Assembly: GCA_000002445.1 (NCBI GenBank) | Contig: CH464491.1 | Coordinates: forward strand, 1,344,001-1,408,000 | Direction of reading: 5' to 3' | DNA from: Trypanosoma brucei | Lineage: Eukaryota | Length of the DNA stretch: 64,000 nucleotides | In this document: positions 3,341 through 53,717 of the stretch, in pieces | Layout: each line of letters opens with the position of its first letter | How positions within the stretch are numbered: position 1 is the first letter of the stretch | Program-made: the position numbers and the translations under genes | The notes under the pieces: generated by a model | What the model was told of the DNA's origin: nothing | What the model saw: the letters and a program-made list of their open reading frames with translations, nothing else | The model's database searches: none

Positions 3341-4148
3341 GAAAAAGAGGTATCCGACACTGGCGGTTCAGGTTATCCATTGTGCTTTTCCACTAAATTA
3401 CACAGGATAAGATAGGGTGATGGTACATATTTGCTGAAGTGTAGTGATATCCATGCGCACACCCCGCGCTATCTTTGCAGGGGGTGCATCATATTCGGGC
3501 TTCGCCGCTCAGTGCAGGCACTTGGTGCCGTGGCCAGTTTTTGGTTGACCCGAAAATGGTTGTTGATGCAGCGCCGCATTAAAGTTTCTCCTTTGCTATG
3601 TGGCTGGATGGTGCGGCATCAGGAAAGCGTGCGGGCACGAGCGCCAGCACCAATGAGTTACGCAAGTCAGGTTACGCGCACTGGCTTATTTACCCCTAGC
3701 ATAAAAGTGTGGCGTGACAGAGTTACTAGTGAAAGCGACGATTTGCACCATATCTTGTAAATAGGCGATGGCCTGCGTATCTCAGAGGTGTGAAATGACT
3801 TCTATTCATGGATGTGCTGGTGGCCGCAAGCGTTGAAGCAACCTACTTCTACAGCTCTCATTCTTGTCCTACTCAAAAGACAGGACACCATCCGCTCATC
3901 GTCGAAGGCGTGGTGGAGTACGTCGCTTCCCTCGATCGTTTGTTCTTCGGTGGTGCCAGGGTCCAGTACCCCGTATCATCGGGGGAAGCCAAGAGCTACC
4001 AGTGTTACTCTCTTTTGGAACACTGCTTTGCTTAGACTACGGCATCGTACAGCACAGGGATCAGCAGCGTCTTGCTGGGACACCGTTTTTCGTTTGTCGG
4101 TCCCTGGGCACGTGCCAGCGTGCCATCAGCAGTATCATCCGCACTAAG

Positions 4149-4187
4149 ATGCTGCTGTCCGGTGATGTGGAAGAGAATCCCGGCCCA
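4149..4187 (+). other. 2A-like StopGo (ribosome-skipping) peptide MLLSGDVEENPGP at the start of the retroelement ORF
   Basis: Direct translation atg ctg ctg tcc ggt gat gtg gaa gag aat ccc ggc cca. The D(V/I)ExNPGP consensus is complete. The preceding residues (SSIIRTK) match my recollection of the 2A sequence reported for T. brucei TSR1/ingi elements. Confidence 0.85.
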
Positions 4188-7223: not shown

Positions 7224-7679
7224 ATGTTAACAGCACTGCAGACAGGCCCCCTAGCCGTAACGGACCCAATTCTGAGACGACTATGGAGGCTTCTGCTTCA
7301 AGTTCAGAGAAGGAAGGTGCGTATCCGACTGCAATTTGTGTTTGGCCATTGTGGCGTGAAACCGAATGAGGTTTGTGACGAAATGGCCAAAAAGGCCGCA
7401 GATTTACCACAGTTGCGAGACACATGGATCCCCGACATCATTGCTTATGCGAAGCGAGTGCTTAGGTCGGAAGAAGTCCATGAGAACACTCATAGGTTTG
7501 GTATCACGGGCAACCACTTTCCAACAAAACATAGGGAAGAACTGACGAGGGAAGAAGAAACGGCACTGGCACGCTTTCGGGTTGGGTCTTCAAGACACTA
7601 TGGATGGATGTTGCGAAAGATCAACCCGAGTGTAGTGTACCCTCACAGTGCCGATGGTGTAACCCGCAACATGCAGTGA
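7224..7679 (+). CDS. Retroelement polyprotein segment 2: C-terminal part of the RNase H domain (same frame as segment 1, beyond the in-frame stop)
   Basis: Translation contains VRIRLQFVFGHCGVKPNEVCDEMAKKAADLPQ, an RNase H-type signature. The frame is identical to 3864-7223 (both start positions are divisible by 3). Confidence 0.6.
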   Translation: MLTALQTGPLAVTDPILRRLWRLLLQVQRRKVRIRLQFVFGHCGVKPNEVCDEMAKKAADLPQLRDTWIPDIIAYAKRVLRSEEVHENTHRFGITGNHFPTKHREELTREEETALARFRVGSSRHYGWMLRKINPSVVYPHSADGVTRNMQ

Positions 7680-8916
7680 TAGGACCAACAATACAAACAC
7701 AAACAGCCTACCTGTTGCGACACGCACTCTTCAGAGAACCTCCGAACCGACCAAATGTACGGAGTGTGATGCCACATACCAATGCCGCTCGAGTGCTGTA
7801 ACGCACATGGTAAACAAACATGGCTTTGTGCGAGCTGATGCCCTCCGGAGGATCAAATACGGCGATGCAACACCCGCAGTGGATATCCCCCCGGAGCCCC
7901 CTCCAGTGGTGGCGATCGTTCCTCTACCATCGAGCACACGAGTCCCGATGAGACCGCAGGTGTTTCATTGTACCCTCTGTGCCTCCAAATTCGCAGTGCA
8001 AGGCCGACTATTACACCACCTTAGAACAATACATGGCATAGGCAGCGGTAGTTACCGCGTGAAAAGGGAGCGAGAGAACGAGGACTCAGTGCAAGGAGAT
8101 GGTAGAGCCCCAGCAGCGCCAGCCTCTCAGGATACACGGAAGCTGCCGTTTCAATGTGACCTGTGCGAGGCGAGCTTCGGTACACGCTCTTCCCTGTCAC
8201 TACACAAGAAATTCAAACATAAGAGCATAGTGACGGAGGACGGTACCGTGGTGGTGGTGCAATTCCCTCGTAAGCGTGCCCGTGAGGGAAACGTTGACGT
8301 CCCGGGGAAGGGCGAGGTGCAGTGCGGTGTGTGCCAAAAAGTGCTCAGTTGCAGGGACTCCCTCATCCGACACTGTAAGGCTTTCCACAAAGGTGAGGGA
8401 GTCGAGCTTAAATGCAGCAAAAGCACAAAATTGTGTTCCACGGATTCCCCGCATACAAATGCATCCATGTTGGTGTGCCCGACATGCGGAAGGCAGTGTG
8501 CTAGCAAAACTGGCCTCACCCTACATCAAAAGAAGATGTACGGTATGAAGGTAGAGCGCGCTGTTACCAGCCAACGCGGCGACTGCGAAGAAACGTCGCT
8601 GTACCTGATGAGCTGGCCCGGTTTGAAGGAGTTACGTGTCAGGTTTGCGGTAGAAGGTGTATGTGTGCAGGATGTATGCTTCTCCAAAAGGCTGGCGCAG
8701 TTTCTCATTGCGGTTGAACGGAGCCGGCCGCAGGTGAAGTCCTCACCTAAGGTAACAGTCATACAACCCACTCTCCCTTCTGCAACTTTCCCCCTTATTG
8801 CCGAGTGTGGAGCTTGCAGGAAAGGCACTGGACGCAGGAATAGTCCAGAAACCCTCAGAGACAGAGGGGGTATGCAGTCAACAAGCAACAGAAACAGAAA
8901 GAGGGGGAGAGAATAA
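7663..8916 (+). CDS. Retroelement polyprotein segment 3: C2H2 zinc-finger domain (five fingers), in a different frame from segment 2
   Basis: This frame is open from 7663 and overlaps the end of the RNase H frame (7679), implying a frameshift lesion at about 7636-7680. Fingers: CTECDATYQCRSSAVTHMVNKH (7756-7821, upstream of the ORF-track start at 7807), HCTLCASKFAVQGRLLHHLRTIH, FQCDLCEASFGTRSSLSLHKKFKH, CGVCQKVLSCRDSLIRHCKAFH, CPTCGRQCASKTGLTLHQKKMYG. Confidence 0.65.
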   Translation, partial: PATCSDRTNNTNTNSLPVATRTLQRTSEPTKCTECDATYQCRSSAVTHMVNKHGFVRADALRRIKYGDATPAVDIPPEPPPVVAIVPLPSSTRVPMRPQVFHCTLCASKFAVQGRLLHHLRTIHGIGSGSYRVKRERENEDSVQGDGRAPAAPASQDTRKLPFQCDLCEASFGTRSSLSLHKKFKHKSIVTEDGTVVVVQFPRKRAREGNVDVPGKGEVQCGVCQKVLSCRDSLIRHCKAFHKGEGVELKCSKSTKLCSTDSPHTNASMLVCPTCGRQCASKTGLTLHQKKMYGMKVERAVTSQRGDCEETSLYLMSWPGLKELRVRFAVEGVCVQDVCFSKRLAQFLIAVERSRPQVKSSPKVTVIQPTLPSATFPLIAECGACRKGTGRRNSPETLRDRGGMQSTSNRNRKRGRE

Positions 8917-11323: not shown

Positions 11324-13788
11324 CAGTCAGCTTTTGCTAATCTTAATTTGTTTAACTGAGATACTTACGTTTACACCTAAGCGGGAGAGCGAACTGACAC
11401 ACAGTTTACTACTTTTTTCTGAACTTGTTAACTATCGCTCGATTTTCGTTAGCATTCACCATTTGTTTTACTCGTATTTTAACGTGGAATCCTCTAATGA
11501 AATTACGGAAACGAACGACTTTATCTTTTCCTGCTTATGGACATTTACCACCTTACTCTTCCTCTCTATTTTTTGCTTTGCGTTCCTCTGTTCGTGGAAG
11601 GTGGTTACTTGATGCTTTACCCTCATAATTATATCTGTACGACTACAAAATTTTTGTTCACCATTAGCAAGCATAGCCGTTGCCTGTTTCTACAAAAAAA
11701 AAACAACAAGCGACAGGGTAAGTGAATGTATAGATTAAGCGGGATATTTATGTGAAAGTCTACTAGAGGAAAGCCGTTCAAAAGTCCAACTTCCCCCCAC
11801 ATAGGACATTTTAGTTGTGCTGAGAGGTGTACCTGCTAACTCGTGCGCTCGTGCGGGACTACAACGTGATCAAGGCAGTTGTTGAGAAGTATAAGTAAGT
11901 TCTTACTGTTTTCTTTCCCTGAGATTAATAAAGACAAGGGTTCTCGGCGGAGGGGTATCGAAAAAAGTGATCATGTAGAGGGATATATGCGCTTGAAAAC
12001 TGCCGTTAGCGTTTCTTCTGGAGCGAAGATCATGTTTGTGGAAGTCACTGGTGATGCCGTGCTGTACCCACGACGGGCTGTATTATCTTACATTGCTTCT
12101 TGCGAGCCCCACGGTATGCAGTTTGATATTTGCCCGCCCTTACTCTCCGAGAAACACACATGTGCCCTGGATGTTGTTGGGTTGCTCCGGGGCGTAATAT
12201 GCATATCGTCTTTAACCCTGGGAATGCGCAGTGTGGCGGGCTGCATGAGAGTTAGCAAACCACACCTTACTCGCCAGCAAAGCTATGTTTTCTTTCCTTT
12301 TTGTTTTATTCCCACTTCTTCAGTGCCGTTTGTTGCTGGTCGATATTCCGCCGTAATTAAAGAGAAAATGATTCGTATGCACGGTAAACACTACTTTTGT
12401 ATAAAAGTGCCAGTGTTGCGCCTTACAGCTTTCCAAGGCGTGCAGGGCGGGGGGGGCAGGGTGTTATTCGAGGTCACTTGAGTGGCTGCGGCGCGGTGAG
12501 TTGTGTTCTTTTCAGATCTAAAAAGGCCGCGGTAATGATGTGTACGATGGATTCGTTTTTTAAGGCGATGACGAGCTGGTAAAGTGAGAAAAAGTTGTGC
12601 GGTGCCGACGTTGGTGCATTCATCCCAATTATAGGAAGAGCCTTCTATCTCTCCATCACATATTTTGGTTGTAGCAACGATTTTTGTTGGATGTATTTGG
12701 TGACTTTAGGCATATTCTTCTTTGCGGATATGGATATTGAATGAGGGCATATAGTTGTATTCCATCACGGTGATCTGCGACAGGTTTTAAATAAATTAGC
12801 TTTAGCCCCGTTGTTAACATCCGTTTTGAGACCCGTGTACGACATTTGGGTGACACCTTCATGATTCTATGCTCGAATAACTGCCTTTTCATTGCTAGAG
12901 ACTTGATTACTGGATAATTATACAAACATTTGAAGGGAAGGGCGCGTTACAGAGGTAAACAAACACACAACGCAAATTTTCGATTGCTGACCTTTTTTGC
13001 TCTCAGAGACGCCGAGGGAAAGGAAGCGAAAAGCCTTCTTCTGTGAAGACGTGAGCGCAAGGCTCACAGCAAAGAGGGAGGTTGCAGTGATACGAATCGA
13101 CGGTAAACGTGCTTGTGTGTTTTTCTGTGGCGATGTTTTTAAATATTACTGTTTATGAACCACTGACGTCAGTAACACAGATTTCACTACTTATATGGTC
13201 TCCTCTTTTTATTTCTTTAAGTTTGTTGTAGAGAATGTGAAACATATGAAGGTAATACAACTGTTCTAACTTCCCCCCTGGGTGACAGTATAGTTCAACG
13301 AAGAAGACGGAAGGCCATGACCTGTGGTGCTGTACAGGTGGGATACTTCGCACAAAGGGCGCATAACGGAAAATATTGCGTATGTTAAACGCGATTTTAT
13401 TTTGTTTCTTTTGAGTTCTTCAGACGTTTGTCTGTACAGGTGGAAAGGGGGAAAAGACTCGTATTTTAATTTTACCGCAAAAAAAAAAAAGAAATTAAGT
13501 TTTTGTTAACTAGTGTGTGACTCACATAAGGGAGCACACTTAGATGAGCGGATCACATGAGGTGGGATAAAGGTGCAGGCGTGTGTCCATGATGCTCCTT
13601 TCTTCTTCTTTTTTTTTTTTTGAGAGAGTTTTGTGGTTGTCATCTGTCTTTTATTCTGTTGGCCTTATGCTCTTTCTTGGTTGAGTGAGGTAGTAAAGGG
13701 TATGGTGGGGTATTGTCGTGAAGAGGAGCTACGGTTGCGTTTTGTGCATGATGGATTGCAATGGAAACCGTAATGTTACCTGTGTTTA

Positions 13789-13812
13789 GTGTGTGTGTGT
13801 GTGTATGTGTGG
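13789..13812. repeat. (GT)n microsatellite
   Basis: gtgtgtgtgtgtgtgtatgtgtgg, read directly from the sequence. Confidence 0.9.
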
Positions 13813-14890
13813 TTGTGTGCCGTCATTGACAGGAGATCGCGTCTCTTGTGAGAGTCTATATTACAGTTCGGCGCAACGGTTTTGCCGCGTTAACGCTGCT
13901 GGAATCTAATCAGAGATGTTGGGATGCCTTGAAGTGTATGTTTGCTGCTAAGGTTGTTCGCAGTGTTGTGCCTCTATTGTGTTGCGTAAGTAAAGGGTCG
14001 ACTGCCCTTGTTGCCGGTGTGGGAAGTAATGAGTCCGTGCATGCTTTCCCTTGTTCGCGTTTGTGGCGTATGGGTTGTGTGTAAATCGTTATTCTTTTCT
14101 GTTAATCATCGTGAGGAGCATGTTGATATAATTTTTGGTCTTTTTCGTTCATTTGTGACAGGGGGTCAGCTCCAGGTGGTGCAAAAGTACCAGAATGAGT
14201 GGTGTAATGCCGAGGCGGATGATTCCACTGCGGCACCATACGATGCTGTCTCAAAAGGTTGAAGCGTCCTTTCACAGTGTGTTTGGGGGGGGGGTTCTGC
14301 TTTGTTGAAGTGAGCGCTGGTGGTGTTTTGATTGCAAGTGCTGAACAAATGGCAACATTACATGATTGCCCTTGAAGTGTCTGTATACACCCTGATGGGT
14401 GAGCGGAGCACATTTCTTTATGTTAGACGGCGGTTGTGGTGCTGAAATTTATCATAGCTGCCTGTGAGTGCCCATCTCGACCATCCAAGGATACTTAGAT
14501 ATTGTTCACTGTTTCCATATTCTTTGTTATTTTTTAAAGGCGAGGTTAAGTAAAAGTAGATTGCTGCATATTGCATTTGTGCGTAGGCCAGTACCGGCGG
14601 TTGATCTCACGAAAATTACTTTTATTTATTTTTGTGGTTAACAATAACCCCTCTCCTGCCTGGTTATTCCCAACGAGTGTGTATGGATCTGATGTTCTCT
14701 TCCAACCACAGTGATTGGACCCACTGCTGTATTGGTCGGCGCAGAATTTGCCGAAGCTTTTGTTTTAATATCTACCTTGCGGTAAGAGGAATCTTGCGAA
14801 TAACGTGTAAGCAAAAGTGTCAAAAACCGAACGCTTCGATGTCCCCCTCCAAATTCGAAGTTTGAGAATTTACCTGGATGCTGGTGCCTA

Positions 14891-22480: not shown

Positions 22481-23374
22481 ATCTAACGCGCATATTCGCA
22501 CTTTAGTAGACTAAATCCCATAGAAACAAGTGATTTTCCTACATAACGTTTTCTTCCTTAAAGATTCTATTTCTTATCGTCTTAGTTTGTGCTGTGTGTC
22601 CACACATCTTTTTGCTCCTTAGCGGAAGATGCAGGTGGCGTATTCCCATTAAATTTGCTGCGATTCGATATCGTTTGGGCAACACTTGCCCTATCAACCG
22701 CTGCGTGTCTCTTCATTTCCATCTTGCTACGGGTTGTGATAATCACGTGCTTTCTAAATTTCAAGTTAGGGCTGGTGCCAGTGGGTTATGGTATGGTTAT
22801 GGTGAAAACGGGTTACGGAGAGGCCGAACGACAGCGTAGCAACTCTTACTTCATTTGATCTTTCATGTTCAGAAGGGCTGACATAAATCCGTGACTAACC
22901 TCGGTGCAGAGTTCCCATGTGGCGTTTTACGGGGAGCCAACATGCCAAGCTGTCGCTTGCGTGAAGTTCCCCCCCTCCCCGAAACTGAGAGCAAATACGT
23001 GGGTGATACGCTGATCGAGATCCACTACTTCATTTTTTGTGGGGTCGACTCAGGTTGAAAGTCGTGTACAGAGTGCTTCTATGCGGGAGGGTTTTATTAA
23101 GTGCATCGGTTGCTGCTGCACTACCTACTTCTGGCTCAGTTGCCTGCTGGGGTTGGAGGGTACCAGGCAATGCTTCATTGAACGACTGCATCCACCCTCT
23201 ATCGGAAGGCGGTCGAAGATATCACAGGACTTGTGGCGATCTTCGCACACCGCGTATGCGTTTCTTAAACCGTGTGGGGTCGCCGTACGCTTGCGCTGTG
23301 CTTCAGATGCCAGCAGAGCCATCAACGCAGAATGAAGAGGAAATGAAGGAGCTCAGATGGCGGTCTCCGTGATG

Positions 23375-23394
23375 GTGTGTGTGTGTGTGTGTGT
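23375..23394. repeat. (GT)n microsatellite
   Basis: gtgtgtgtgtgtgtgtgtgt, read directly from the sequence. Confidence 0.9.
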
Positions 23395-24271
23395 TGAGCG
23401 TAGTCCCGCGACGTGTGTTACTGCGGCAGCACGTCACGTGTGTTTGGGCCCGTCCGGCTCTTCCACTGGTATCATTCAGTGAAGGTAATGAGGTGCTATT
23501 CCCCCTACCGTTTCCTTTTCTGTTGGATAACGGTCCTGCGTGGACTAACCCACCTTTCCAAACCCTTCCGCAACAGAGCTTTACCCATAAAAAAAAAGGA
23601 GAGGGACAGGGAAACAGTTATCTATACGGTTAAGCAAATCGGCGTATGAAAGGGGACAGCTGTTTGCGAAGCAGACTTACTGCCATCAACCAACCGAACG
23701 AGTAGACCCCCGCATCTGGACTCTGTAGCAGTCGGTTCTTTGCAAGTGCAGGAAGCGGGGGTCATTTAGCTTGGGTGTGCTCTACCAGATGTTGGCCTTC
23801 AAAAGGCCGAAGATTCAAAAGCTGGCTTTATCAAATCGATTTTCAAGGTTAGGTAGGGTGTGTGGATGTGCGGTAGAGTGAAGTGTTTTCGCTGCCAATG
23901 TCATGTAGTTAGGTGCCAAATGGGTTGACAGCCGCTGCTTCATTTTACTATTAACTGAAGGTGAATGCTGTGGTTCTGTATTCTAACACACACCATGCCG
24001 TTCACACCGCGGAGGTGCTTCACGACGGTATGTATGACACGAAAAGCCTCGGGGCTTTGCCTCTTGCCGCTTTAGAATAATTTTTGAAACCCAAAGCGTT
24101 TCTCGTTTGTGTTTTCTTTAGCGGCGTAGTGTACGTCACTGCCCTACCTTGCGTTTCGGAGTGTGTGTCTTTCTTCTAGAAGCCGGTGGTTGTAAAAATG
24201 TTACGTGTATTCTTGAATTTTATTTGCTTGTTTGTCTAGTATTTGGAGCAGTTACCTTCGGCTGTCATTGC

Positions 24272-35839: not shown

Positions 35840-37407
35840 CTAAGCAACGATGCAACAGTCTAACTGTTGTTATTTGCTGCTTTTCTTCTTATTCTTCTAT
35901 TGTTGATAGTTGTCGTCATATTGGCCCTCCTTTCCGCTCCTCCTGCTTCTTTGTTGTTGTGCTGTCGTGGGTCTTTTTGATGCTGTTTGGTGCTTCACCA
36001 AACACAGTGGATCGGCAGCACGTGCTCTGTTCCTCGACATATGAGATGGGCTTGTGTCGTGATTGGAGGATCGCTGTGTAGCCTCCTGCGCTTGGTGGCA
36101 AGCCGCACCAGTTGGGTTTTCTGTATCTAATTCCTGCTGGGTTGGTTTTTCCTCATCCTGTTGCAGAGGCTCGCACGTAAGTAATTTAACGAAAACTAAA
36201 TTTAAGGAGGTTTGTTATTACTGTTATTGTTATTGTTTTTTTTTTCGGTTCAAGAAGAAAAGGTGAGAAGAAAAACAAGTAAGAATAGTCTGATCTTCTC
36301 AGGAGGGTGAGCCATTGTAGAGAGAAGGTGCTGCGGAGGAGGAATACTAACTAGAAAGGAAAGAAAGACGAGGCTGGTTTGACGTGGGCAAAAAACAACC
36401 AACAAGAAAAAGGCTCTAAGCGTTCCCAGAGAGGAGACGTGACGCATATCGCTCTCCAGTATCTCCCTTTCCCTTGGGTCGTTCCAATTCTCTCACCCGA
36501 CACCACATGTGCGTGAATATATACTGCACTCTCCTTATTTTTCTACCTCTTTTTCTCTTTTCATCCTTTCTTCTTAACTTGCCGATTTCCCGCTTCACTC
36601 TATATTTTATTCTTCTCCATCTTCCCTCCTTCTTTTTCTTCAAGTGACCACTATTTACTTTTCCATGTACCAGTGAATGTTAGCGGTTCTGACAGTCTGA
36701 TGCGCGCTGGGAGAGGCCAATATCGCGGTGGAAGAGGTTGGCATGGACCGCCTACCAATGCCTAATCATACGAAACTCGTGTGCGCCATTCTTTAGTTTT
36801 TATTTCCTCTTTTGCAGTTCTCGGCAGGGTGTCCTGTCCCGGCTATTAGTTCTGATGTGCTGCAGTCACCATCTGTTGCGCATGTCATGACAGCTTTGTG
36901 AGGTTACCGAATGGTATATTCCAGAAGACCCTCAAATAAATATCGGTAGGAGCCGGCGTATTTAAATGGTAGGAACGACACAGGAGCCTTCAAAGTATTG
37001 ATACAAATATGTGCCATCTCGTGTTATTTTTGATCAGGTGGAGTGAACGTTCTTCCGTTGGCAGCACAAGTCTTCTTCCTCTCGCTGTAAATTTGAATGG
37101 GAGTGTGACCCCCCAGCAGTGAGAAGCATAGCCCACACCAATGCGTTGCATTATGTCATTTGTTCACATAGCACTACTGTTGTGCACACTTTTTAACATA
37201 AAAGTGCGCATTAATTCGGTATCGTCTTGTATACGTATTTCAGTTGCCCATCAGCGCCAAATGTTGGCACGCAGTCGGTCTTCACGTGTCCCCCAGCTTC
37301 CTACTACCACTTAGTTTTCCTGCCTGTTCTTTTTGCTTTTGTGCTATATCAAATGTACGTACCAAAAATGAAAGTAATTAGAATTTAGTACATAGGATTA
37401 CTTTGCA

Positions 37408-41279: not shown

Positions 41280-41572
41280 GGAGGAAGGCGCTCCCTTTTA
41301 TCCTTGCTGGTGCGTTTGATGGAGCCGGCATGCGTTGCATATGTTTTGTACATGAGGCCATGGGCGGTGAAGGTTGTGATTATTATTAATGCAGTATTTA
41401 CCGGATAATGGGGCATTCAACGTTATTCGTAAACCCATGATAATGTGTGTATGGTGTGATGCATCCTTTCCCCCCTCTGTTTCGTTATGTTGACTCGTTA
41501 CCTGACCTCCTCCCACCATTTCCTCGTCTCCTTTCATCGCTTATCCACGATATAGTTAGTCATAAGGGGTAG

Positions 41573-43933
41573 ATGGAATACAAATCTGTTTTTGAACTTC
41601 GACAGCATATAGCAGACAATGTGACCCCTCCCAAGGGAAGGCATCGGCCCCCGGTGAGCGGGTGTAGTGGGTCAAGTGTTGAGAGTTCTCCAAGTTCCGG
41701 TTATTCAGGTGATGCTGGTATGGATGCAATTTTGGACGACCCAACAGCTCTCGTTTGTGAGGTTCCTGGACTCGACAAACTAAGGGCTCTCAGCGTCTCA
41801 TTAAAAAATGAAGAGGCCGTACAAAACTATGTGGAGGCGCGAAATCTTTCGGTGGAGGAGGCCACGCGGTACATTATGAATAACGGAAGTACTGGACAGA
41901 AGAAGTCTCTGTTTCAGCGGCTGGGCGACACACTTAACGGGTTGGAAATGACTGCTATGTCACAAGTGTTGATGATTGTCGTTGATTTTATGTGGGTGCA
42001 GGATCCCGAGTTGCAGTGCTTTGCCCCTGGAGCACTATTAGGTGTCCTGCCGCTGCTGAGTAGTTCTGTGGTTAGGGAACTTATGATGGTGACTAGCACT
42101 ATGCTAAACGTGAAAACCGCAGAAATCCGAATAGCGTGGAATAAACTTTTCCTTGCCTTTGTAGATCACCTCACCGCGAAGCAACTTGACAATGACATGG
42201 TTCCACTAGCTCTGAAGAAAGCAGAACATATAGAACCACAGGATCAGCGTGAGCTTAGCTGCGATCTAATCGGTGCCGTTTGTCATCATCTGCCCCGCGA
42301 TATTGTGGAGCGCAAATTGCTTAATAAGGTGCTTGCGCTTTGCCAGGACACTAACGTGGGCGTAAGGCGACATATGTGTCAGCAGTTGGGCACAGTTGCC
42401 CGTTCACTTGGTGTCGACAAGGCGAAAGAGAAGGTCGCTCAGGAGCTATTTGAGCTACTTAACGACGAGGATCAAACTGTGTCACGTGCAGCATTTTCTT
42501 GTTTGATAGACTTGGTCGAGTTTTTCGGCCCTGCCTATCGCCGCGAGCGTCTCTACCCGATAATAAGGGGGTTTATATCTCACCCACCGGAGGAGGTAGT
42601 GAGCCTTATTGTTGGTGAATTTGGGCGCTTTTTGTGGGAAATCAAGGCAGACATTCAGACAAGTGATGACGTCGCTATGTTTGCCACATTTTATCAGGAT
42701 GCAGCGTTGAAGGGGGACGACCACACCCGTTACCGGTGTGCATACAATCTACCTTCTGTTGTTGCTTCGCTACCCGTTGATGTGTTTCCAACCCACTTGG
42801 CTCCTTGTTGTGAGGCACTATCAACCGATGTTTGTGAGTCTGTTTGTCAGAGCCTGGCTTCTGGATTGCATGAATTAGTCAAGCTTATCGGTGACCGAGC
42901 CGCTGAGTATTTGCGGAAACCGTTCCTGAACCTCCTCCATAGTTCTAAAAAGAGTGTCCTGAAGGCCCTCTCCGGTCACACATGTGTTTTACTTGATTGC
43001 TTCTCCCAGCAACTCAAACCGGCGGACCGTACGGCGTTCTTCTCGACGATAGAGGATATTTTGCTGGACCTTGCCTCCCGTGCTGACAGGGACTGGCGGA
43101 TCATGGAATACGTGCTGAACATTCTTTGCTCTTACTACAAGGAGTTGAATGAGACGTCTTTGCACGAAAAGTTTCTGCCAGTGCTCCTAAGATATGAGAA
43201 ATATGGGGCGTACTGTTTGAAAAACCAGTGCGCTGAAATGTGTATAAAGATTTCTGCAGCGCTATGTAGCGTTAATAGCAAAGTACAATTCTTCAGTAAG
43301 TTGAACAATGAGTATGCACATAGCCCTCTGGCTTCCGTGCGTCAGGGTTATCTACGCTTTGTAAGAGCTGCTTGCGGTGAGTTTTCTCGGCGTTTTATTA
43401 GAGAACGGATGCTTGAATGCTGTTTTGAGCTTCAACATGATAATATGGAAGGAGTGCGACTGGAGCTGGCTCGCATACTGCCGCTGCTGCGGAAGGTGCT
43501 GGAACCGTTAACGACAGGCACTGTGCTAGATGAGTATCAGGACATGGTGCGTCGTCTGCAAATGGATGACAGTAGTGAGGTGCGTGCTGTGGCAGTTGAC
43601 AGTGTGGATATAATAGAAGCCCGTGAGCGGGAGTTGAAGCGAGACGCAGGAAAGAACAAATTCGAAGAAGAATCCAGGGAGGACAGACGGCGTGAAATGT
43701 CTGAAGGTCAGCTTCTGGACGTAGCGAAAGAATATGACAAAGCTGAACGCAGGTCGAAGCTGCGAGACCTCCTCAAATCTGAGAGGGAAAAGGAGCAAGC
43801 GGAAGCTACGCGGAAACTTGGGGTGGGGCGACGATCAATGAAACCGAGTTCGGCACAATCGCAGGTGAAACGGCCACAGCAAAGTCCCGTGAGAGCCCCA
43901 ATAGCTGGTCCTTCCCGGCAGAAACGGCATTAG
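41573..43933 (+). CDS. Hypothetical HEAT/ARM-like helical-repeat protein with a charged coiled-coil C-terminus
   Basis: ATG checked at 41573. 786 aa with repeated amphipathic helix pairs (for example LGTVARSLGVDKAKEKVAQELFELLNDEDQTVSRAAFSCLIDLVEFFG). The C-terminal 120 aa are a Glu/Arg/Lys-rich coiled coil. No catalytic motif. Confidence 0.5.
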   Translation: MEYKSVFELRQHIADNVTPPKGRHRPPVSGCSGSSVESSPSSGYSGDAGMDAILDDPTALVCEVPGLDKLRALSVSLKNEEAVQNYVEARNLSVEEATRYIMNNGSTGQKKSLFQRLGDTLNGLEMTAMSQVLMIVVDFMWVQDPELQCFAPGALLGVLPLLSSSVVRELMMVTSTMLNVKTAEIRIAWNKLFLAFVDHLTAKQLDNDMVPLALKKAEHIEPQDQRELSCDLIGAVCHHLPRDIVERKLLNKVLALCQDTNVGVRRHMCQQLGTVARSLGVDKAKEKVAQELFELLNDEDQTVSRAAFSCLIDLVEFFGPAYRRERLYPIIRGFISHPPEEVVSLIVGEFGRFLWEIKADIQTSDDVAMFATFYQDAALKGDDHTRYRCAYNLPSVVASLPVDVFPTHLAPCCEALSTDVCESVCQSLASGLHELVKLIGDRAAEYLRKPFLNLLHSSKKSVLKALSGHTCVLLDCFSQQLKPADRTAFFSTIEDILLDLASRADRDWRIMEYVLNILCSYYKELNETSLHEKFLPVLLRYEKYGAYCLKNQCAEMCIKISAALCSVNSKVQFFSKLNNEYAHSPLASVRQGYLRFVRAACGEFSRRFIRERMLECCFELQHDNMEGVRLELARILPLLRKVLEPLTTGTVLDEYQDMVRRLQMDDSSEVRAVAVDSVDIIEARERELKRDAGKNKFEEESREDRRREMSEGQLLDVAKEYDKAERRSKLRDLLKSEREKEQAEATRKLGVGRRSMKPSSAQSQVKRPQQSPVRAPIAGPSRQKRH

Positions 43934-46900
43934 GCTTTTTCCCCATTCCTCAACACTCTGCGGCTTGTAGTTTTTGTAGGGTCGAATGGTAACCATGTAG
44001 CATCTTTTTTTTTTCTTGTTGGTGTTGGGCGGCGACGGCGCTATAAAACGAAAACGACAGGAGACGGGGAGGGGAGTTGTGACGGAGATCGTAGGTGTTT
44101 TTTTTTCTTTTTTGTTGCCTTCGTTTGTCCTTATTGTTTTTGTATGGGAGAAGAGGAAACTACATAAACAAGTAACAAAAAACAACATGACGATGTGAAA
44201 AAAACAACAACAACTAATGAGTAGAGCACAAATGACTGACTACGAATATGAACGAAGACTCGGCTCTAGCGGTATGAAGGCGATGAAGTACTGTGAAAAG
44301 AGGAGACGTAAGGGAAACAAAAAAGAGAGAGGAATGAAAGAGGAGATTTAAGACACCATCACCAACACCAACAACAAAGAATTTCATGAGAGAAGAGGAA
44401 TAATTTATTAACAACAGGGGAAGAGGAGGAAGGAAAAATAAAATAAAATTAATCAAAAGATAAATCAAAAGATAAAAACAAACAAACAAAAAAGAAACGA
44501 ATAAAAGAACAGAATGAGGGTACTTTAAATTTAGGATTTTTGGGAAGTGATGTGGAATTCAGATGTGCCCCTCCCCCCGTATGTTTTCCCTCTCTAGTTT
44601 TTTTTTCATTTTCTCCCTTTCGTTTCTTCTTTGCGGCAACATTGGTGTCAGCTTACCTATGCAAATTTCTCCATTTTGTGACGGTTTACTTTCTTTGGGT
44701 TGCTGTTTCTTTTTTTTTTTTACTTCTGCTTTGTGTTTTGTTTCACCTTTACCATTTTCTTCCGTCTTTCTATTACGTGTCTTTTTTCTTTTTTTTTCTT
44801 TCGTCGTTTTGTTGTTGTTGTTGTTGTTGTTTTATTCGTTACGGGACGCCAAGATCAGAGTACTTTTTGCATGTTGATATGTATATTTTTATATATTTAA
44901 TTGTAAATATAGTTGTATATATACATATATACATACACATATGTGTGTGAAGCGCGTGGGGTAAAAAAAAAGAAAAAAAAGAAAGGACAATAGCCAAAGA
45001 GGGAATAAAAAAGGAAGAGAGATGAGTCACATATATGTGTATTTATATATTTATATATCTGTATATATATATATATATATATATGCGTATGTGTCTTTCT
45101 TTCTTTGTATGCCCTTGCGTGTGGTGGGAACTATTGAGAGGGCGAGTTAAATAATAAGCAGCATGAGGAAATTGAAGGTGAAATGAGGAAGAAGAAGAGG
45201 AAGAGGAACAAGGACGGAGAGGGTGAGGAATCGTGAAGACGGCAGCAAGGGAAATAATAAGAAAAAAATGAGGTAAATCAGGAGAAGGAAAGTAAATAAA
45301 TAAACACATCCGAATATGAATGAATAAAAAAAGAAAAAAAATATATATAACATTTAAACACGCAAGCAATATATTTATACGAATGTTTATGTTTATATGG
45401 AGGTTAGTGTTACTTGATGGAGCACGTGTGTGTGTGTGTGTGTGTGTTTGTTTGTTTGTTGAGGGGGAGGGGAACGCCTTCATGTTCTGTATCTGTCTTC
45501 TCTTCTCTTCTTTTTTTTTTTGTTGCGTGTGCGTGCGTGTACGTGTGAAGTTCACATGTACATGTTTTTTTTTTTCTTCGGGTAAAGGAATTTGTTTCAT
45601 TAAGCGGCCTTCAGGTACTTCATGAGAGGAACTAAATGGGGGTATGCAAATGAGAGGTGAATGTGTGGCGGGGAGCGGAAGGGGTAATGGTAATATCTCC
45701 ATTTAGTGTTTGAGGAAATCTACTGTGTGTGTGTTTTTTTGTGTGTGTAAAATATTGTGCCCTCCTTCTCGAAAGTTGCAGGTAGTTGGGTCTCTTTCAG
45801 CGTTTTTATTTTCTTGCACTCATATATTTGATTTGTTGTTTCTTTTTTCTTTTCCTCCTCCTTGTCATCACTCTGTTATTATGATTACAACTATTACTCT
45901 TATTGGTATTTTTTCCGTTTCCCCGTCAGTGCTTTCTGTTTTTTTCTTTTTTTATTCATTCCCCCCACTCCTTTCAGCCGCATTTGTTTCCTTTCCTCTC
46001 CTCTCCTCTGCGCTTCTTGTTTCTCTTCTTTTCCCTCTTTACCATATTTTATTTAATAACAACTTTACGAAATGCATTATTCACAAATGCCGCTATTGCT
46101 CTTCTTGTGTTTGTTTTCTGCTTTACTTTTTATTTTGTTTTTTTTTCGTTTCTTTTTTTTTGTTTTCCCGTAACTTCCACCTCACCACCCTCCACCTCCT
46201 CCTCCACCTCCTTTTCTTCTTTTTCATTTTCCTCCAGTCGATTACGTGCTTCGAATGATAGTTTGAAGAAACGGCGAGCAATTTGTGTTGCCGCCGTCGT
46301 GTTATGTTCAGCTTTTTAATGTCGGTAATTTATTGACTCATTCACCCGCTTTTCCTCTTCCTTTTCCTTTTTTTTTTACAAATGCATATGTGTATTTGTA
46401 TTGCACTGTGCTTGTGCATATACATATGTCTCATCATGTTTGTTATTATTACTTTGGTTATTACTCCCACTACCATACACACTCCCCTCCCTCATTATTA
46501 CTACCCTCAAAACCCGAATCGTGAAGAAAGTTAAAAAAAAAAAATAAACACACAATAAAAAAAAAAGAAAAAAGAGAATTAAGACAAAGAAACAAAAAAA
46601 GAAAGACGACAGGAAAGAAAAGTAAGGGTCGAAACAAAGAAAGCGAAGAAAAACAAAAAAAAAAGAGAAAGATTTAAAAGAAAAACAAAAGAGACAAAAG
46701 AAGAGAAGAGGTGATTAAACAAATTGCCGCGTTTTTGTTGCTCTTGTGTACGTGTGCAAGAGTGGGTGGGGAGGGACTGCATAGGTGGTGACTTCACCTC
46801 CTCCCTTATGATGTTCAACCTTGTAATTTCTAACTTATTGATGTTTATTCTTGGTTGATTGGTATCTGTTGTTTCACACTCTTTCCATCCATGCAACTTT

Positions 46901-47858
46901 TTCTTTCCATTCTCTTTCATTCTTATTCTTATTCTTGATCTTTTTTTTTTTTTGAGTCTATTTTGTGTATACTTGTGTTTGTGTATGGAGGCACTTGTGC
47001 AATGACCACCGTGGCATCTCCGTGGTTGCATATGCGCGCTTGTAACATTCATTAAACATATATGTGAGTTTTACTATTAGTGAAGGAGTAAATAAAAGGA
47101 AAAAGGGATGTAAAGGTGGGGACAGTAGTCCTTCCAGTTGCAAGTGTGTGGTGTCTTTAATTTTGGTATTTCTGTGCGTAATGTAGTGCGCAGAGGAGTG
47201 TGTGTGTGTGTGTGTGTGGAAGCATTTGCATCAGCATGGAAAAATGATATTAAATAGTTCTCTCATATTGTATCATTAATGGATGCGCGGATTTACTCGC
47301 AGTGGGTTAAAAATGATCTGACCTCTCAAGTCTGGAGGTTATGGAGCTTATTTGATCTCGGAAGAAAGTTGAGTGTTTTATTCCTGCACTTTTAGGGTCA
47401 CTGATTCTCAACGTATCACGAGGATGTGGAGTCCTAGAAGACATTAGTTGATTGTTTTTTTTTTTCCTATAAATAAATATATATGCTCTTCTGTTTGTCT
47501 ATTCGCTTTGATGGTGTGCTCGTTAACAACGCGTCGCTCGTTTTTTTTCTTTCGCCCGTCATTACATTCTTATTCTTTTGATTTTTTGTTCCTTCCTTTC
47601 TTCTTTTACTGACGTTTACCCTCCACCCCCCCCCCCCACACACACACATCCACCACGCTGTTGTTAATTGAATCAGTGGGGGAAAGGTGGAAAGGTAAAA
47701 AAAAAAAAAGAGAACAAACGAGAGGAGACTGCAAAGGCACGCTGCGTCTCCTTCTCAGCGTTCGTACGTGACAATTTCTTTCTCTTCTTTCAGCACAGGT
47801 TTAAACGGGAAAGAGAGAGAGAGAGTCTCAAAAGTTTGCAGCGTACGTGCAGATTCCA
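43934..47858. repeat. 3.9 kb low-complexity intergenic spacer with alternating homopurine and homopyrimidine blocks plus microsatellites
   Basis: Block structure read off the plus strand. A/G-rich at 44190-44520, 45150-45400 and 46497-46740. C/T-rich at 44560-44880, 45700-46500, 46800-46960 and 47540-47650. Embedded repeats: (GTT)n 44808-44832, (TA)n 45062-45084, (GT)n then (GTTT)n 45426-45460, (TG)n 47199-47218, C13 at about 47626-47640, (GA)n 47812-47825. All ORFs here are low-complexity translations. Confidence 0.8.
47551..47660 (+). promoter_or_regulatory. Long polypyrimidine tract upstream of the TFIIS-like gene (candidate splice-acceptor signal)
   Basis: cattacattcttattcttttgattttttgttccttcctttcttcttttactgacgtttaccctccaccccccccccccacacacacacatccacc, about 200 nt upstream of the ATG at 47859. 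Confidence 0.45.
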
Positions 47859-48500
47859 ATGGGTAAGGATTCCAATGATGGGAAAATAGGCGTAAAGCGC
47901 TTCAGAGAGGAGTCCAAAACGGCTTTGGGGGCACCCACATCGCCTCCGGTGACACCCAATTGTATAAATAACACATCTGTCACAGTGAGAAATATTGAGG
48001 GAAGACAAGGGGACACCCGCTTAACAAAGTGGAAAACGCTGTTATGCAAAGCACTCATGCAAGGACGGAAAGAAGAGGATGAGGGACGTGTTGCGGATAT
48101 GGCGTTGCGTATTGTAAAGGCTATTCCGGGCGGGCGCTCAGAGTCCGCTGACACATTCCGTATGTTGTTAGTTCATTTGGGTGATGCTAAAAATAGGGAA
48201 CTTCGAGAGAGTATTATTGAAGAAAAGTTTAGTGTGGAGGTTTTGGTGCGTATGAAAGAGAGGGATTTGTTGAATCCCGAAGAGCGTGAGCGCCAGGAAG
48301 CGGCCTTCTTGGCACGTAGCAGGGATACGGATCTAACAGAAATACGGAAAGCGACGTCCACCACTTCTACCCTCTTTCCTTGTCCATCTTGTAAGGCCAA
48401 GAACTGTACTTGGACACAAAAACAGACACGATCAGCCGACGAACCGATGACTATATTTTGTATCTGTAATATCTGTGAGCACAAATGGCGTCGCTATTAG
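47859..48500 (+). CDS. Transcription elongation factor TFIIS-like protein (C-terminal zinc ribbon)
   Basis: The ORF track start 47847 is GTG. The first ATG is at 47859. The C-terminus CPSCKAKNCTWTQKQTRSADEPMTIFCICNICEHKWRRY (48381-48497) matches the TFIIS C4 zinc ribbon, including the RSADE acidic loop. Confidence 0.7.
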   Translation: MGKDSNDGKIGVKRFREESKTALGAPTSPPVTPNCINNTSVTVRNIEGRQGDTRLTKWKTLLCKALMQGRKEEDEGRVADMALRIVKAIPGGRSESADTFRMLLVHLGDAKNRELRESIIEEKFSVEVLVRMKERDLLNPEERERQEAAFLARSRDTDLTEIRKATSTTSTLFPCPSCKAKNCTWTQKQTRSADEPMTIFCICNICEHKWRRY

Positions 48501-52737: not shown

Positions 52738-53717
52738 CGCGTCATCCACCGAAACCTTCATGCCACGATTTAATAGAAGGGAGAGGTGAATACGTTGGAA
52801 TAGTGCGGTGTCGAGACGATCTTTATAAGTAACCCGCGCTCAACTGAGGTCAACAGCCGACGACCCGAATCGCAACGCTCTAAAGTTTCTCCTAAAGTAA
52901 AGTGTGAGAAAAAAAATGATAACTCTAATGTGTATGCCATACCTCCCTTTTTCTGTTATTTGATATGTTTCTACATATACCTGTATATGTTCACATGCGC
53001 CGTATTGCTGTGTGATCGTGCTTTCTTCTCTTTTCTCCTTTCCGCATTTTGCTCTCTTTTAGTGGTAGTGCCAAACATGTGGGTACCGACGTTACGTCAC
53101 TTAATGTGTAGGGAAGGCGTTTGAGTGAGTGTGGATAATATAAGCGCTCCCTTTTTTCTCTTGCGCGCGGTTTTTCAGTTAGACTGCAGTGGAAAAGCAC
53201 AGCGTTGGTACGCACTTCCTTTCCATTTGGACTCACCGTGGCGCAAACTGAAGGCAGCGAGAAATAATGAGATGTGGATGGGTTAATATTTGGGACCGCT
53301 GCTCAGTTGCAGCAACTTTCAAGTTTCGCAGCGGACGGGTGATAAGAGCTTTTTTTTAAAAGGTGTCTGTTGCAGCTGATCTTATTGTTATTATTATAGC
53401 TATTGTCACTGACTTTTACTACTAGTTCTTTTGCTCGTTAATTGATTGTTGCCTGTTGACACTGGTTACTTCTTGGTGCAGTGGTTAACGCGTGTTGGTG
53501 CGGTGATTTGGGGGTTTAATCAGGAGATAAATATGAAGTTGATAGATTGGGTTGATCATGAGTGTCTTGAATCGGCTTCCCGCAATCTGGTCGATTGCTT
53601 TCACCACCCTTTTAGTGTTATCAGCATGCACATCCTTCTTTACCATTCTTTACCCCCTTCTTGACGTTAGATAAGGACTAAGTTGTTTCAGTTTCAGGCC
53701 TTCTTTCCTCTTTGCAT

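What the first reader, a model, noticed from the sequence alone, without database searches (positions are those of the whole stretch)
43934..47858. 3.9 kb gene-free spacer of alternating homopurine and homopyrimidine blocks inside an otherwise compact gene array
Intergenic distances elsewhere in the array are about 0.3-1.8 kb. Here, about 3.9 kb separate the HEAT-like gene stop (43933) from the TFIIS-like ATG (47859). The sequence is organised in blocks: plus-strand A/G-rich at 44190-44520, 45150-45400 and 46497-46740, alternating with C/T-rich at 44560-44880, 45700-46500 and 46800-46960. It is interspersed with (GTT)n, (TA)n, (GT)n, (GTTT)n, C13 and (GA)n tracts. Pyrimidine blocks on the plus strand are potential splice-acceptor signals. 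Purine blocks are the same signal on the minus strand. The interval could hold an unusually long 3' UTR, an unannotated non-coding transcript, or a structural element. Homopurine-homopyrimidine mirror tracts of this length can adopt H-DNA.
Basis: seen in the sequence. Interest (0 to 1): 0.5.

Follow-up and report, generated by a model that had tools for sequence, protein, structure and literature searches.

The report
Long trypanosome 3' UTR plus lncRNA
The 3.9 kb "empty" stretch is mostly the long, alternatively processed tail of the upstream Trypanosoma brucei gene, followed by a short non-coding transcript; both are already in published transcript maps, so the region is real but ordinary.

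Summary
The window is Trypanosoma brucei TREU927 chromosome 11. The 3,925 bp spacer (43934-47858) lies between the HEAT/PP4R4-like gene Tb927.11.4950 and TbTFIIS1 (Tb927.11.4960).

It is the longest spacer in the conventional gene array, has GC 0.37, and has purine-rich and pyrimidine-rich blocks far beyond chance.

Published maps explain most of it (Kolev 2010):
- 43934-46831 is the 2.9 kb 3' UTR of the upstream gene, flagged for alternative internal processing.
- 46957-47510 is a trans-spliced, polyadenylated 553-nt transcript, Tb11.NT.64.
- A lncRNA, KS17gene_3620a, is annotated between the two genes.

A simple rule (pyrimidine tract, then first AG) reproduces the mapped splice site exactly.

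I found no tRNA, no Rfam family and no excess RNA folding. The ORFs inside break in sister strains. The blocks are only 71-77% pure, so long H-DNA is not supported.

In T. cruzi, T. grayi and T. melophagium this position holds a paralogue gene, TFIIS1-2. That gene is absent, without a detectable relic, in T. brucei and T. vivax.

The two strongest A-to-T junctions of the window match the sequence signature reported for T. brucei replication origins. I could not test that.

Verdict: already known, low interest.

The parts
41573..43933 (+). Coding sequence of the HEAT/PP4R4-like gene Tb11.02.2560 = Tb927.11.4950 (context; its mRNA starts at 41556).
   Evidence: Pfam HEAT hits. Exact protein match to EAN79458. 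ORF 1385573-1387933 in Kolev Table S3 fixes the offset: window coordinate = v4 coordinate - 1,344,000. An AG precedes 41556. Modern ID.
43934..46831 (+). 2,898-nt 3' UTR of Tb927.11.4950, with alternative internal processing. It contains purine-rich blocks R1 (44190-44520), R2 (45150-45400) and R3 (46497-46740), and pyrimidine-rich blocks Y1 (44560-44880) and Y3 (45700-46500).
   Evidence: Kolev 2010 Table S3 gives transcript 1385556-1390831 with the flag 'alt 3UTR'. Block composition.
44598..44651 (+). Predicted, not mapped: the best internal processing module. A 35-nt pyrimidine tract (44598-44632) is followed by the first AG at 44650-44651. The coupled poly(A) zone, 44472-44552, falls in the A-rich end of R1. 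Use of this site would give a short mRNA with a 3' UTR of about 0.55-0.6 kb.
   Evidence: Tract-then-first-AG rule applied. The same rule reproduces the mapped sites. Distances follow Kolev's statistics.
46832..46956 (+). 125-nt gap between the mapped poly(A) site and the next mapped splice acceptor. It carries the pyrimidine tract 46897-46953 (including T13) and the AG at 46955-46956.
   Evidence: The gap is close to the genome median of 142 nt.
46957..47510 (+). Tb11.NT.64: a 553-nt trans-spliced, polyadenylated transcript at 0.83 RNA per cell. The longest ATG-initiated ORF is 39 aa. It may be the same as, or a neighbour of, the annotated lncRNA KS17gene_3620a.
   Evidence: Kolev Table S7. 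AG and pyrimidine tract sit directly upstream. ORF scan. lncRNA annotated between Tb927.11.4950 and Tb927.11.4960.
47511..47676 (+). Gap containing pyrimidine tracts 47582-47610 and 47619-47637 (including C12), with the first downstream AG at 47675-47676. This is the predicted TFIIS1 splice acceptor.
   Evidence: The predicted poly(A) zone 47497-47577 contains the mapped Tb11.NT.64 end at 47510.
47677..47858 (+). Predicted 5' UTR of TbTFIIS1 (182 nt, or shorter if the AG at 47797 is used).
   Evidence: Consistent with a Northern blot showing TFIIS1 mRNA only about 800 nt longer than its ORF (Uzureau 2008).
47859..48500 (+). Coding sequence of TbTFIIS1 (Tb11.02.2600 = Tb927.11.4960) (context).
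   Evidence: Pfam TFIIS_M and Zn_ribbon_TFIIS. Published primer sequence matches the window. Modern ID.
44520..44560 (.). Strongest A-rich to T-rich polarity junction in the 64-kb window (A 0.51 in the 300 bp upstream, T 0.54 in the 300 bp downstream).
   Evidence: The signature is described in Stanojcic 2026.
46724..46800 (.). Second-strongest A-to-T junction in the window. It has A runs of 8 or more upstream, T13 downstream, and a + strand G-run (46764-46788) between them. It coincides with the mapped poly(A)/splice pair at 46831 and 46957.

Best explanation
The spacer is ordinary trypanosome inter-coding sequence, unusually long but not a special element. RNA polymerase II reads through it as part of a + strand polycistronic unit, and the RNA is cut into pieces by coupled polyadenylation and trans-splicing.

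Mapped pieces (shown by published data):
- 43934-46831 is the 2.9 kb 3' UTR of the HEAT/PP4R4-like gene Tb927.11.4950.
- A 125-nt gap follows, carrying a pyrimidine tract.
- 46957-47510 is the short, apparently non-coding transcript Tb11.NT.64.

Predicted pieces: a second pyrimidine tract follows, and then a 5' UTR of up to about 180 nt for TFIIS1.

Inferred mechanism: the T-rich pyrimidine blocks supply splice-acceptor tracts, and the mapped poly(A) sites lie 100-180 nt upstream of the splice acceptors. At two A-rich to T-rich junctions (about 44540 and 46770) the A-rich block ends just upstream. The many unused pyrimidine tracts inside the 3' UTR act as cryptic or alternative sites. Their use would shorten the 3' UTR and release UTR-internal non-coding RNAs. 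PTB-like proteins such as DRBD3 are reported to restrain such sites.

Origin of the blocks (inferred): they are low-complexity sequence built and kept variable by replication slippage. The interval occupies the position of the TFIIS1-2 paralogue gene, which salivarian trypanosomes lack.
For: Identity and mapping:
- Exact protein matches identify the locus, and a published TFIIS1 primer matches the window.
- Kolev Table S3 gives the Tb11.02.2560 ORF at a constant offset of 1,344,000. It gives transcript 41556-46831 with the flag 'alt 3UTR'.
- Table S7 lists Tb11.NT.64 at 46957-47510.
- Six of the seven mapped splice sites I checked in the window sit directly after an AG with a pyrimidine tract upstream. 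This validates the offset.

The processing rule works:
- The tract-then-first-AG rule returns 46957 exactly.
- Its predicted poly(A) zones contain both mapped ends, 46831 and 47510.

Independent support:
- TFIIS1 mRNA is only about 800 nt longer than its ORF, so the spacer cannot be its 5' UTR.
- lncRNA KS17gene_3620a is annotated between the two genes. It rises 2.5-fold on DRBD3 depletion while the upstream mRNA is unchanged.
- Kilobase-scale 3' UTRs and 394 genes with alternative 3' UTR processing are reported genome-wide.

Nothing else is hidden there:
- No tRNA and no Rfam family above threshold.
- The ORFs inside have no Pfam hit, are low-complexity, and are broken in sister strains.

Evolution:
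- Substitution divergence from T. b. gambiense is 0.98%. Other spacers show 0.5-3% and coding sequences 0.2-0.55%.
- Nearly all of the 39 indels are microsatellite or homopolymer slippage.
- TFIIS1-2 sits at this position in T. cruzi, T. melophagium and T. grayi.
Against: - The transcript map comes from one study of procyclic T. b. rhodesiense. I obtained summary tables only, not the per-site lists for chromosome 11.
- The positions of the internal alternative sites and of KS17gene_3620a are therefore unknown.
- A-rich internal tracts (A10-A13) can create false poly(A) sites by oligo(dT) priming.
- No function of the long 3' UTR has been shown.
- A gene-free spacer of 2.7 kb with a similar purine block and T18 tract also exists in T. 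vivax. That hints at some constraint this account does not explain.
- DNA-level roles (replication initiation, R-loops, nucleosome exclusion) are not excluded and could coexist with this account.
Confidence: 0.85

Rival explanations
1. DNA-level element. The A/G-rich to T/C-rich junctions (about 44534 and 46724) are replication initiation sites, or R-loop-prone and nucleosome-depleted sites, of the kind recently described for T. brucei. This is not exclusive with the RNA account.
For: - Stanojcic 2026 reports SNS-seq origins mainly in intergenic DNA, with A (and G) enriched upstream and T (and C) enriched downstream of the centre.
- In that study, 37% of origins have at least 8 As upstream and at least 8 Ts downstream, against 9% of intergenic controls. 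Origins also show + strand G4s in the A-rich side and overlap with R-loops.
- The two top A-to-T polarity positions of the whole 64-kb window are in this spacer.
- 7 of the 23 G4Hunter hits in the window fall in this 6% of the sequence.
- R-loops in T. brucei concentrate at intergenic and UTR sequence near poly(A) sites.
Against: - The signature is the same as a poly(A)-site region followed by a splice-acceptor tract, so it is confounded with RNA processing.
- Only about 1,200-2,000 origins were mapped against thousands of intergenic regions.
- No origin list was available to me.
- The 44534 junction lacks an A run of 8 or more within 500 bp upstream.
Confidence: 0.3
2. Tb11.NT.64 is the 'ghost' of the lost TFIIS1-2 gene. 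The splice and poly(A) signals of the former gene survived while its coding sequence decayed beyond recognition.
For: - TFIIS1-2 lies directly upstream of TFIIS1-1 in T. cruzi, T. melophagium and T. grayi. The gap between the two genes is 330-509 nt.
- Tb11.NT.64 ends 349 nt upstream of the TFIIS1 ATG, and its length (553 nt) is gene-like.
- TFIIS1-2 orthologues were found only in non-salivarian trypanosomes.
- Uzureau 2008 already noted that the gene is absent from T. brucei.
Against: - tblastn and a six-species profile HMM find no trace in the T. brucei, T. b. gambiense or T. vivax spacers. Positive controls scored 3e-134 and 9e-20.
- There is no nucleotide or translated similarity between the T. 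brucei and T. vivax proximal regions beyond low complexity.
- Phytomonas also lacks the gene, so the ancestral state rests on the literature report for Leishmania.
Confidence: 0.2
3. The purine and pyrimidine blocks form H-DNA (intramolecular triplex), or another stable nucleic-acid structure, that acts as a structural element.
For: - Uninterrupted purine or pyrimidine runs of 15 nt or more are about 5.6-fold enriched here: 27 of the 78 in the window.
- Mirror repeats occur at 3.3 per kb, against 0.2 per kb elsewhere.
Against: - The blocks are only 71-77% pure, and the longest pure runs are 25 and 29 nt.
- Most mirror repeats are (TA)n, (GT)n or (GTT)n microsatellites.
- Only three mirror repeats are at least 90% purine or pyrimidine, with 10-13 nt arms and 3-8 nt spacers.
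- RNA folding of block pairs is no better than shuffles.
Confidence: 0.05
4. A missed protein-coding gene, pseudogene or mobile element fills the interval.
For: - ORFs of 157-219 aa exist.
- The T. b. gambiense annotation calls two minus-strand ORFs in the interval.
Against: - The ORFs have no Pfam hits.
- Their translations are low-complexity, and frames are broken by stops or indels in sister strains.
- No TFIIS relic is detectable.
- The spacer has no similarity to the rest of the window, which includes an ingi retrotransposon.
Confidence: 0.03

Closest known systems
T. brucei genes with long, alternatively processed 3' UTRs (the 'alt 3UTR' class of Kolev et al. 2010; for example Tb927.4.4370, or the 3' UTR of at least 3.5 kb of TFIIS2-1)
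   Same: - A spliced-leader to poly(A) transcript spans the region.
- Internal pyrimidine-tract/AG sites are present.
- The gene is itself listed in that class.
- The length lies within the reported range of up to about 6 kb.
   Different: At 2.9 kb it is about 7 times the median of 388 nt. Its purine/pyrimidine block contrast is the most extreme in this 64-kb window.
Trans-spliced, polyadenylated intergenic lncRNAs of T. brucei (Kolev 'NT' transcripts; Guegan 2022 KS17 set, including grumpy)
   Same: - Tb11.NT.64 has a pyrimidine tract, an AG acceptor and a poly(A) end.
- It has low abundance and low GC.
- It has no ORF above 39 aa.
- KS17gene_3620a is annotated in this interval and responds to DRBD3.
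   Different: - No embedded snoRNA or other Rfam family was found.
- No function is known.
- Whether Tb11.NT.64 and KS17gene_3620a are the same transcript was not established.
Cryptic splice-site control by PTB-like proteins DRBD3 and DRBD18 (Ceballos-Perez 2025)
   Same: The upregulated lncRNA lies next to an mRNA whose level does not change. This is the pattern the authors attribute to activation of cryptic acceptor sites.
   Different: This locus was not one of the five studied in detail. DRBD3 binding here was not examined.
SNS-seq replication-origin topology in T. brucei (Stanojcic 2026)
   Same: The A/G-rich upstream and T/C-rich downstream polarity, poly(dA) and poly(dT) runs, and G-runs on the A-rich side are all present.
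   Different: No nascent-strand, nucleosome or R-loop data for this locus were available. The signature overlaps the RNA-processing signature.
HEAT gene / TFIIS1-2 / TFIIS1-1 gene order in non-salivarian trypanosomes
   Same: The flanking gene order is fully conserved: phosducin-like, AAA ATPase, HEAT, TFIIS1, RBBP4-like, DEAD helicase.
   Different: - The middle gene is missing in T. brucei and T. vivax.
- The interval is nevertheless longer: 3.9 kb and 2.7 kb, against 1.5-1.9 kb including the gene.

Membership tests
Long, alternatively processed 3' UTR (Kolev 'alt 3UTR' class) | One transcript runs from a spliced-leader site upstream of the coding sequence to a poly(A) site far downstream. 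| tested here: met
   The published table gives 41556-46831. The AG and pyrimidine tract at 41556 were verified in the sequence.
Long, alternatively processed 3' UTR (Kolev 'alt 3UTR' class) | Internal spliced-leader and poly(A) tags lie within the UTR. | tested here: inconclusive
   The gene carries the flag 'alt 3UTR' in Table S3. The per-site tables for chromosome 11 were not held. I can only predict candidate sites, such as 44652.
Trans-spliced polyadenylated lncRNA | A spliced-leader acceptor (AG after a pyrimidine tract) and a poly(A) end define a separate transcript. | tested here: met
   Tb11.NT.64 at 46957-47510 in Table S7. T13 plus GAG lie immediately upstream.
Trans-spliced polyadenylated lncRNA | No coding potential: no conserved ORF, no ribosome association, no peptides. 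| tested here: inconclusive
   The longest ATG ORF is 39 aa. It has no translated similarity to T. vivax. It is not in Kolev's lists of conserved or peptide-supported transcripts. Ribosome data were not examined.
H-DNA-forming homopurine/homopyrimidine mirror repeat | A near-perfect purine or pyrimidine tract with mirror symmetry, arms of about 10-15 nt or more, and a short spacer. | tested here: not met
   For the 160-800 bp blocks, purity is only 71-77%. Only three short motifs qualify, with arms of 10-13 nt.
Structured RNA element or known RNA family | Folding energy below shuffled controls, or a match to a covariance model. | tested here: not met
   z-scores from -0.9 to +1.4. All Rfam hits are far below gathering scores and lie on microsatellites. 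No tRNA.
T. brucei SNS-seq origin topology | A/G enrichment upstream and T/C enrichment downstream of a centre, with runs of 8 or more As and Ts within 0.5 kb. | tested here: met
   Junctions at 44534 and 46724 rank first and second in the window. The A8/T8 criterion is fully met at 46724 and half met at 44534.
T. brucei SNS-seq origin topology | Divergent short nascent-strand peaks, low nucleosome occupancy, DRIP-seq overlap. | not testable with these tools
   No origin coordinates are held in the supplements.
TFIIS1-2 pseudogene | Residual protein-level similarity to TFIIS1-2 in any frame. | tested here: not met
   All tblastn hits have E above 0.3, apart from one 17-residue low-complexity match. 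All HMM hits have E above 0.5, while controls scored 3e-134 and 9e-20.
Retroposon (ingi/RIME-type) insertion | Nucleotide similarity to ingi sequence. | tested here: not met
   blastn of the spacer against the rest of the window gave no hit. That sequence contains an ingi element.

The most novel reading that the evidence does not exclude
The alternating A/G-rich and T/C-rich blocks may do two jobs at once. They would direct coupled polyadenylation and trans-splicing on the RNA. They would also mark replication-initiation and R-loop sites on the DNA. On this reading, the interval left by the loss of TFIIS1-2 has been kept long, since before the T. brucei / T. vivax split, because of this DNA-level role. 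Tb11.NT.64 would be the surviving transcription-unit shell of the dead gene.
Probability: 0.1. Interest if true: 0.45.

Novelty: already known. Interest (0 to 1): 0.15.

Why it matters
It matters little beyond annotation. The case shows that in trypanosome genomes a long "empty" interval with striking strand-asymmetric blocks is best read first as UTR plus processing signals. Published splice-site and poly(A) maps already resolve this one.

Two modest points may be useful:
- The interval marks the place where salivarian trypanosomes lack the TFIIS1-2 paralogue, yet it is longer than the intervals that still hold the gene.
- The sequence signature recently proposed for T. brucei replication origins cannot be told apart, at the sequence level, from a poly(A)-site region followed by a splice-acceptor tract. 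This locus would be a clean place to separate the two experimentally.

Tried and rejected
- tRNA scan: none found.
- Rfam scan at permissive threshold: only sub-threshold miRNA-model hits on (TA)n and poly-C/poly-A tracts.
- Pfam on the three ORFs inside the spacer: nothing. The ORFs are low-complexity and broken in sister strains.
- TFIIS1-2 pseudogene search by tblastn and by a six-species HMM on six-frame translations with stops masked: nothing, with working positive controls.
- Long hairpins between purine and pyrimidine blocks. The blocks do pair in the minimum-energy fold: 152 of 229 pairs. The energy is no better than shuffles. A first attempt timed out.
- Inverted and direct repeat searches: only low-complexity matches at 60-85% identity.
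- T. brucei against T. vivax spacer by blastn and tblastx: only compositional matches. Every T. brucei purine block hits the single T. vivax purine block.
- Dispersed repeat or retroposon: no hit to the rest of the window.
- Per-site splice and poly(A) tables: Siegel 2010 has no held supplements. Nilsson 2010 has no entries for these genes. Kolev's large tables are cut before chromosome 11.
- Guegan 2022 lncRNA coordinates: supplements not held.
- Origin coordinates from Stanojcic 2026: not in the held supplements.
- T. congolense locus: the protein is not on record in the contig index.


Full report
**Where the window comes from.** The two flanking proteins match GenBank entries of Trypanosoma brucei brucei TREU927 exactly. 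These are EAN79458, a HEAT-repeat protein that UniProt names PP4 regulatory subunit 4, and EAN79459, a TFIIS-type elongation factor. Pfam confirms HEAT repeats in the first, and TFIIS_M plus the TFIIS zinc ribbon in the second. A primer published for TbTFIIS1 (Tb11.02.2600) matches the window at the ATG. Kolev et al. 2010 list a 2,361-nt ORF, Tb11.02.2560, at 1385573-1387933 of Tb927_11_01_v4, which is the HEAT gene. So window coordinate = v4 coordinate - 1,344,000. I tested that offset on seven published splice sites in the window. Six sit directly after an AG with a pyrimidine tract upstream. The modern IDs are Tb927.11.4950 (HEAT) and Tb927.11.4960 (TFIIS1).

**The observation.** The spacer is 3,925 bp (43934-47858).
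- It is the longest interval among the conventional + strand genes. The others measure 133-2,505 bp.
- GC is 0.37.
- The variance of purine fraction across 100-nt windows is 0.0387. The maximum over 1,000 shuffles is 0.0042.
- The spacer has 46 purine-extreme and 57 pyrimidine-extreme windows. No other spacer has more than 13.
- Other spacers show the same tendency more weakly, with variance up to 0.029. The pattern is therefore a general property of this genome, at its most extreme here.
- The microsatellites are as described, except that the C run is 12 bases rather than 13.

**What published transcript maps say.**
- Kolev Table S3 gives the Tb11.02.2560 transcript as window 41556-46831. That is a 2,898-nt 3' UTR. 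The table flags it 'alt 3UTR', a class the authors define as having unambiguous alternative processing. Such genes yield a full-length mRNA, a shorter ORF-containing mRNA and a putative non-coding UTR-internal RNA.
- Table S7 lists a new trans-spliced, polyadenylated transcript, Tb11.NT.64, at window 46957-47510. It is 553 nt long and present at 0.83 copies per cell.
- In the sequence, 46957 follows T13-GAG.
- The 125-nt gap between the poly(A) site at 46831 and the acceptor at 46957 is close to the genome median of 142 nt.
- Tb11.NT.64 has no ATG-initiated ORF above 39 aa. It is not in Kolev's lists of conserved or peptide-supported new transcripts.
- A Northern blot showed TFIIS1 mRNA to be only about 800 nt longer than its ORF, so the spacer cannot be its 5' UTR.
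- The current annotation holds a lncRNA, KS17gene_3620a, between Tb927.11.4950 and Tb927.11.4960. In bloodstream forms depleted of DRBD3 it rises (log2FC 1.34, FDR 9e-29). The upstream mRNA is unchanged and TFIIS1 falls slightly. I could not obtain its coordinates.

**How it most likely works.** I applied a simple rule: find a pyrimidine tract of at least 18 nt and at least 90% pyrimidine, then take the first AG downstream.
- The rule returns 46957 exactly.
- It predicts 47677 as the TFIIS1 acceptor.
- The zones 100-180 nt upstream of those two sites contain the mapped poly(A) ends, 46831 and 47510.
- The same rule finds a dozen further tracts inside the 3' UTR.
- The best-formed internal module is tract 44598-44632, with AG at 44650 and its poly(A) zone in the A-rich end of the first purine block. 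It would give a 3' UTR of about 0.55-0.6 kb. This is a prediction, not a mapped site.

So the mapped poly(A) sites lie 100-180 nt upstream of the splice acceptors, and the predicted internal poly(A) zone falls in an A-rich block. The T-rich pyrimidine blocks supply splice-acceptor tracts. Most internal tracts appear to be kept silent or used as minor alternatives. DRBD3 and DRBD18 are reported to repress such cryptic acceptors. The steps shown are the transcript ends and the sequence signals. The regulatory use of the internal sites is inferred.

**What it is not.**
- There is no tRNA and no Rfam family above threshold.
- The 157-219 aa ORFs have no Pfam hit. They translate to low-complexity sequence and are interrupted in T. 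b. gambiense, T. equiperdum or T. b. equiperdum.
- The spacer shares nothing with the rest of the window, which includes an ingi retrotransposon.
- Purine and pyrimidine blocks pair with each other in predicted RNA folds, but the energies match shuffles, with z from -0.9 to +1.4.
- For H-DNA, the longest uninterrupted runs are 25 nt (purine) and 29 nt (pyrimidine).
- Thirteen perfect mirror repeats exist. Most are (TA)n, (GT)n or (GTT)n. Only three are at least 90% purine or pyrimidine, with 10-13 nt arms.
- Short triplexes cannot be excluded, but the 160-800 bp blocks are not H-DNA motifs.

**Evolution.** Among T. brucei subspecies the spacer differs by 0.3-1.0% in substitutions. Other spacers differ by up to about 3% and coding sequences by up to 0.6%. 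Nearly all of the 39 indels lie in homopolymers or microsatellites. Slippage is therefore actively shaping the low-complexity blocks.

Gene order around the spacer is conserved across trypanosomes. In T. cruzi, T. melophagium and T. grayi a paralogue, TFIIS1-2, sits between the HEAT gene and TFIIS1-1, and the whole interval is only 1.5-1.9 kb. T. brucei (3.9 kb) and T. vivax (2.7 kb) have no gene there.
- TFIIS1-2 orthologues were retrieved only from non-salivarian species.
- Uzureau et al. already noted the gene's absence from T. brucei and its presence in L. major.
- Neither tblastn nor a profile HMM finds a relic, and the positive controls worked.
- Phytomonas also lacks the gene, so the direction of change rests partly on the literature.
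- The T. vivax spacer has a 90%-purine block followed by a G/T-rich patch and a T18 tract. These lie about 1.1-1.2 kb upstream of the TFIIS1 ATG, as in T. brucei. The similarity is only compositional.

**A DNA-level reading that remains open.** A 2026 study reports that T. brucei replication origins lie mainly in intergenic DNA. A and G are enriched upstream of the origin centre, and T and C downstream. The origins also show poly(dA)/poly(dT) runs, nearby G4s, low nucleosome occupancy and overlap with R-loops. R-loops themselves concentrate at intergenic and UTR sequence near poly(A) sites.
- The two strongest A-to-T junctions in the whole window are at about 44534 and about 46724.
- 7 of the 23 G4Hunter hits in the window lie in the spacer.
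- This signature is the same as a poly(A)-site region followed by a splice-acceptor tract. Sequence alone cannot separate the two, and no origin list was available.

**Verdict.** The explanation is ordinary and already in the literature: a long, alternatively processed 3' UTR, a short non-coding transcript and a short 5' UTR, built from slippage-prone low-complexity sequence that doubles as processing signals. Novelty: already known. Interest: low.

Noticed in passing
window 3864-8916 (+): An ingi-type non-LTR retrotransposon. One 1,119-aa ORF carries endonuclease and reverse-transcriptase domains. It is followed by an RNase H fragment (7224-7679) and a C2H2 zinc-finger ORF (7807-8916). GC is about 0.53, higher than the surroundings.
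   Followed up: partly
window 1675-2403 (-): A 242-aa ORF on the minus strand matches the retrotransposon hot spot (RHS) protein P-loop domain (E 2e-48). It is probably an RHS pseudogene fragment next to the ingi element. The first 3.8 kb of the window has no conventional + strand gene.
   Followed up: partly
window 12675-13130, 13222-14821, 22733-24094, 36645-37241, 53063-53600: Several other long spacers of the window also hold published 'novel transcripts' of Kolev 2010 (Tb11.NT.60, 61, 62, 63 and 65). Tb11.NT.61 is itself flagged 'alt 3UTR'. The mapped acceptor of Tb11.NT.62 follows GG rather than AG in this strain.
   Followed up: partly
L004 7271-10000 (T. vivax): The syntenic T. vivax spacer is gene-free and 2.7 kb long. 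It carries a 100-nt block of 90% purine (8671-8770), then a GT/G-rich patch, then a T18 tract. The layout and distance from TFIIS1 resemble T. brucei 46497-46953. Homology cannot be shown because the sequence is low-complexity.
   Followed up: partly
L008 11046-14683 and L010 8880-12404: In T. melophagium and T. grayi, extra genes lie between TFIIS1-1 and the RBBP4-like gene. T. brucei and T. vivax lack them. They include a 330-333 aa protein and, in T. grayi, an FHA-kinase. The neighbourhood has therefore lost or gained more than TFIIS1-2.
   Followed up: no
window 41280-41572: The short spacer upstream of the HEAT gene shows 3.1% substitutions against all three sister genomes. That is the highest value among the spacers compared, and TREU927 is the odd one out.
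   Followed up: no
L003 (T. b. equiperdum GCA_003543875.1): Single-base deletions in homopolymers occur throughout this assembly, and its gene calls are truncated (AAA ATPase 145 aa, no HEAT gene called). This suggests assembly indel errors rather than biology.
   Followed up: no
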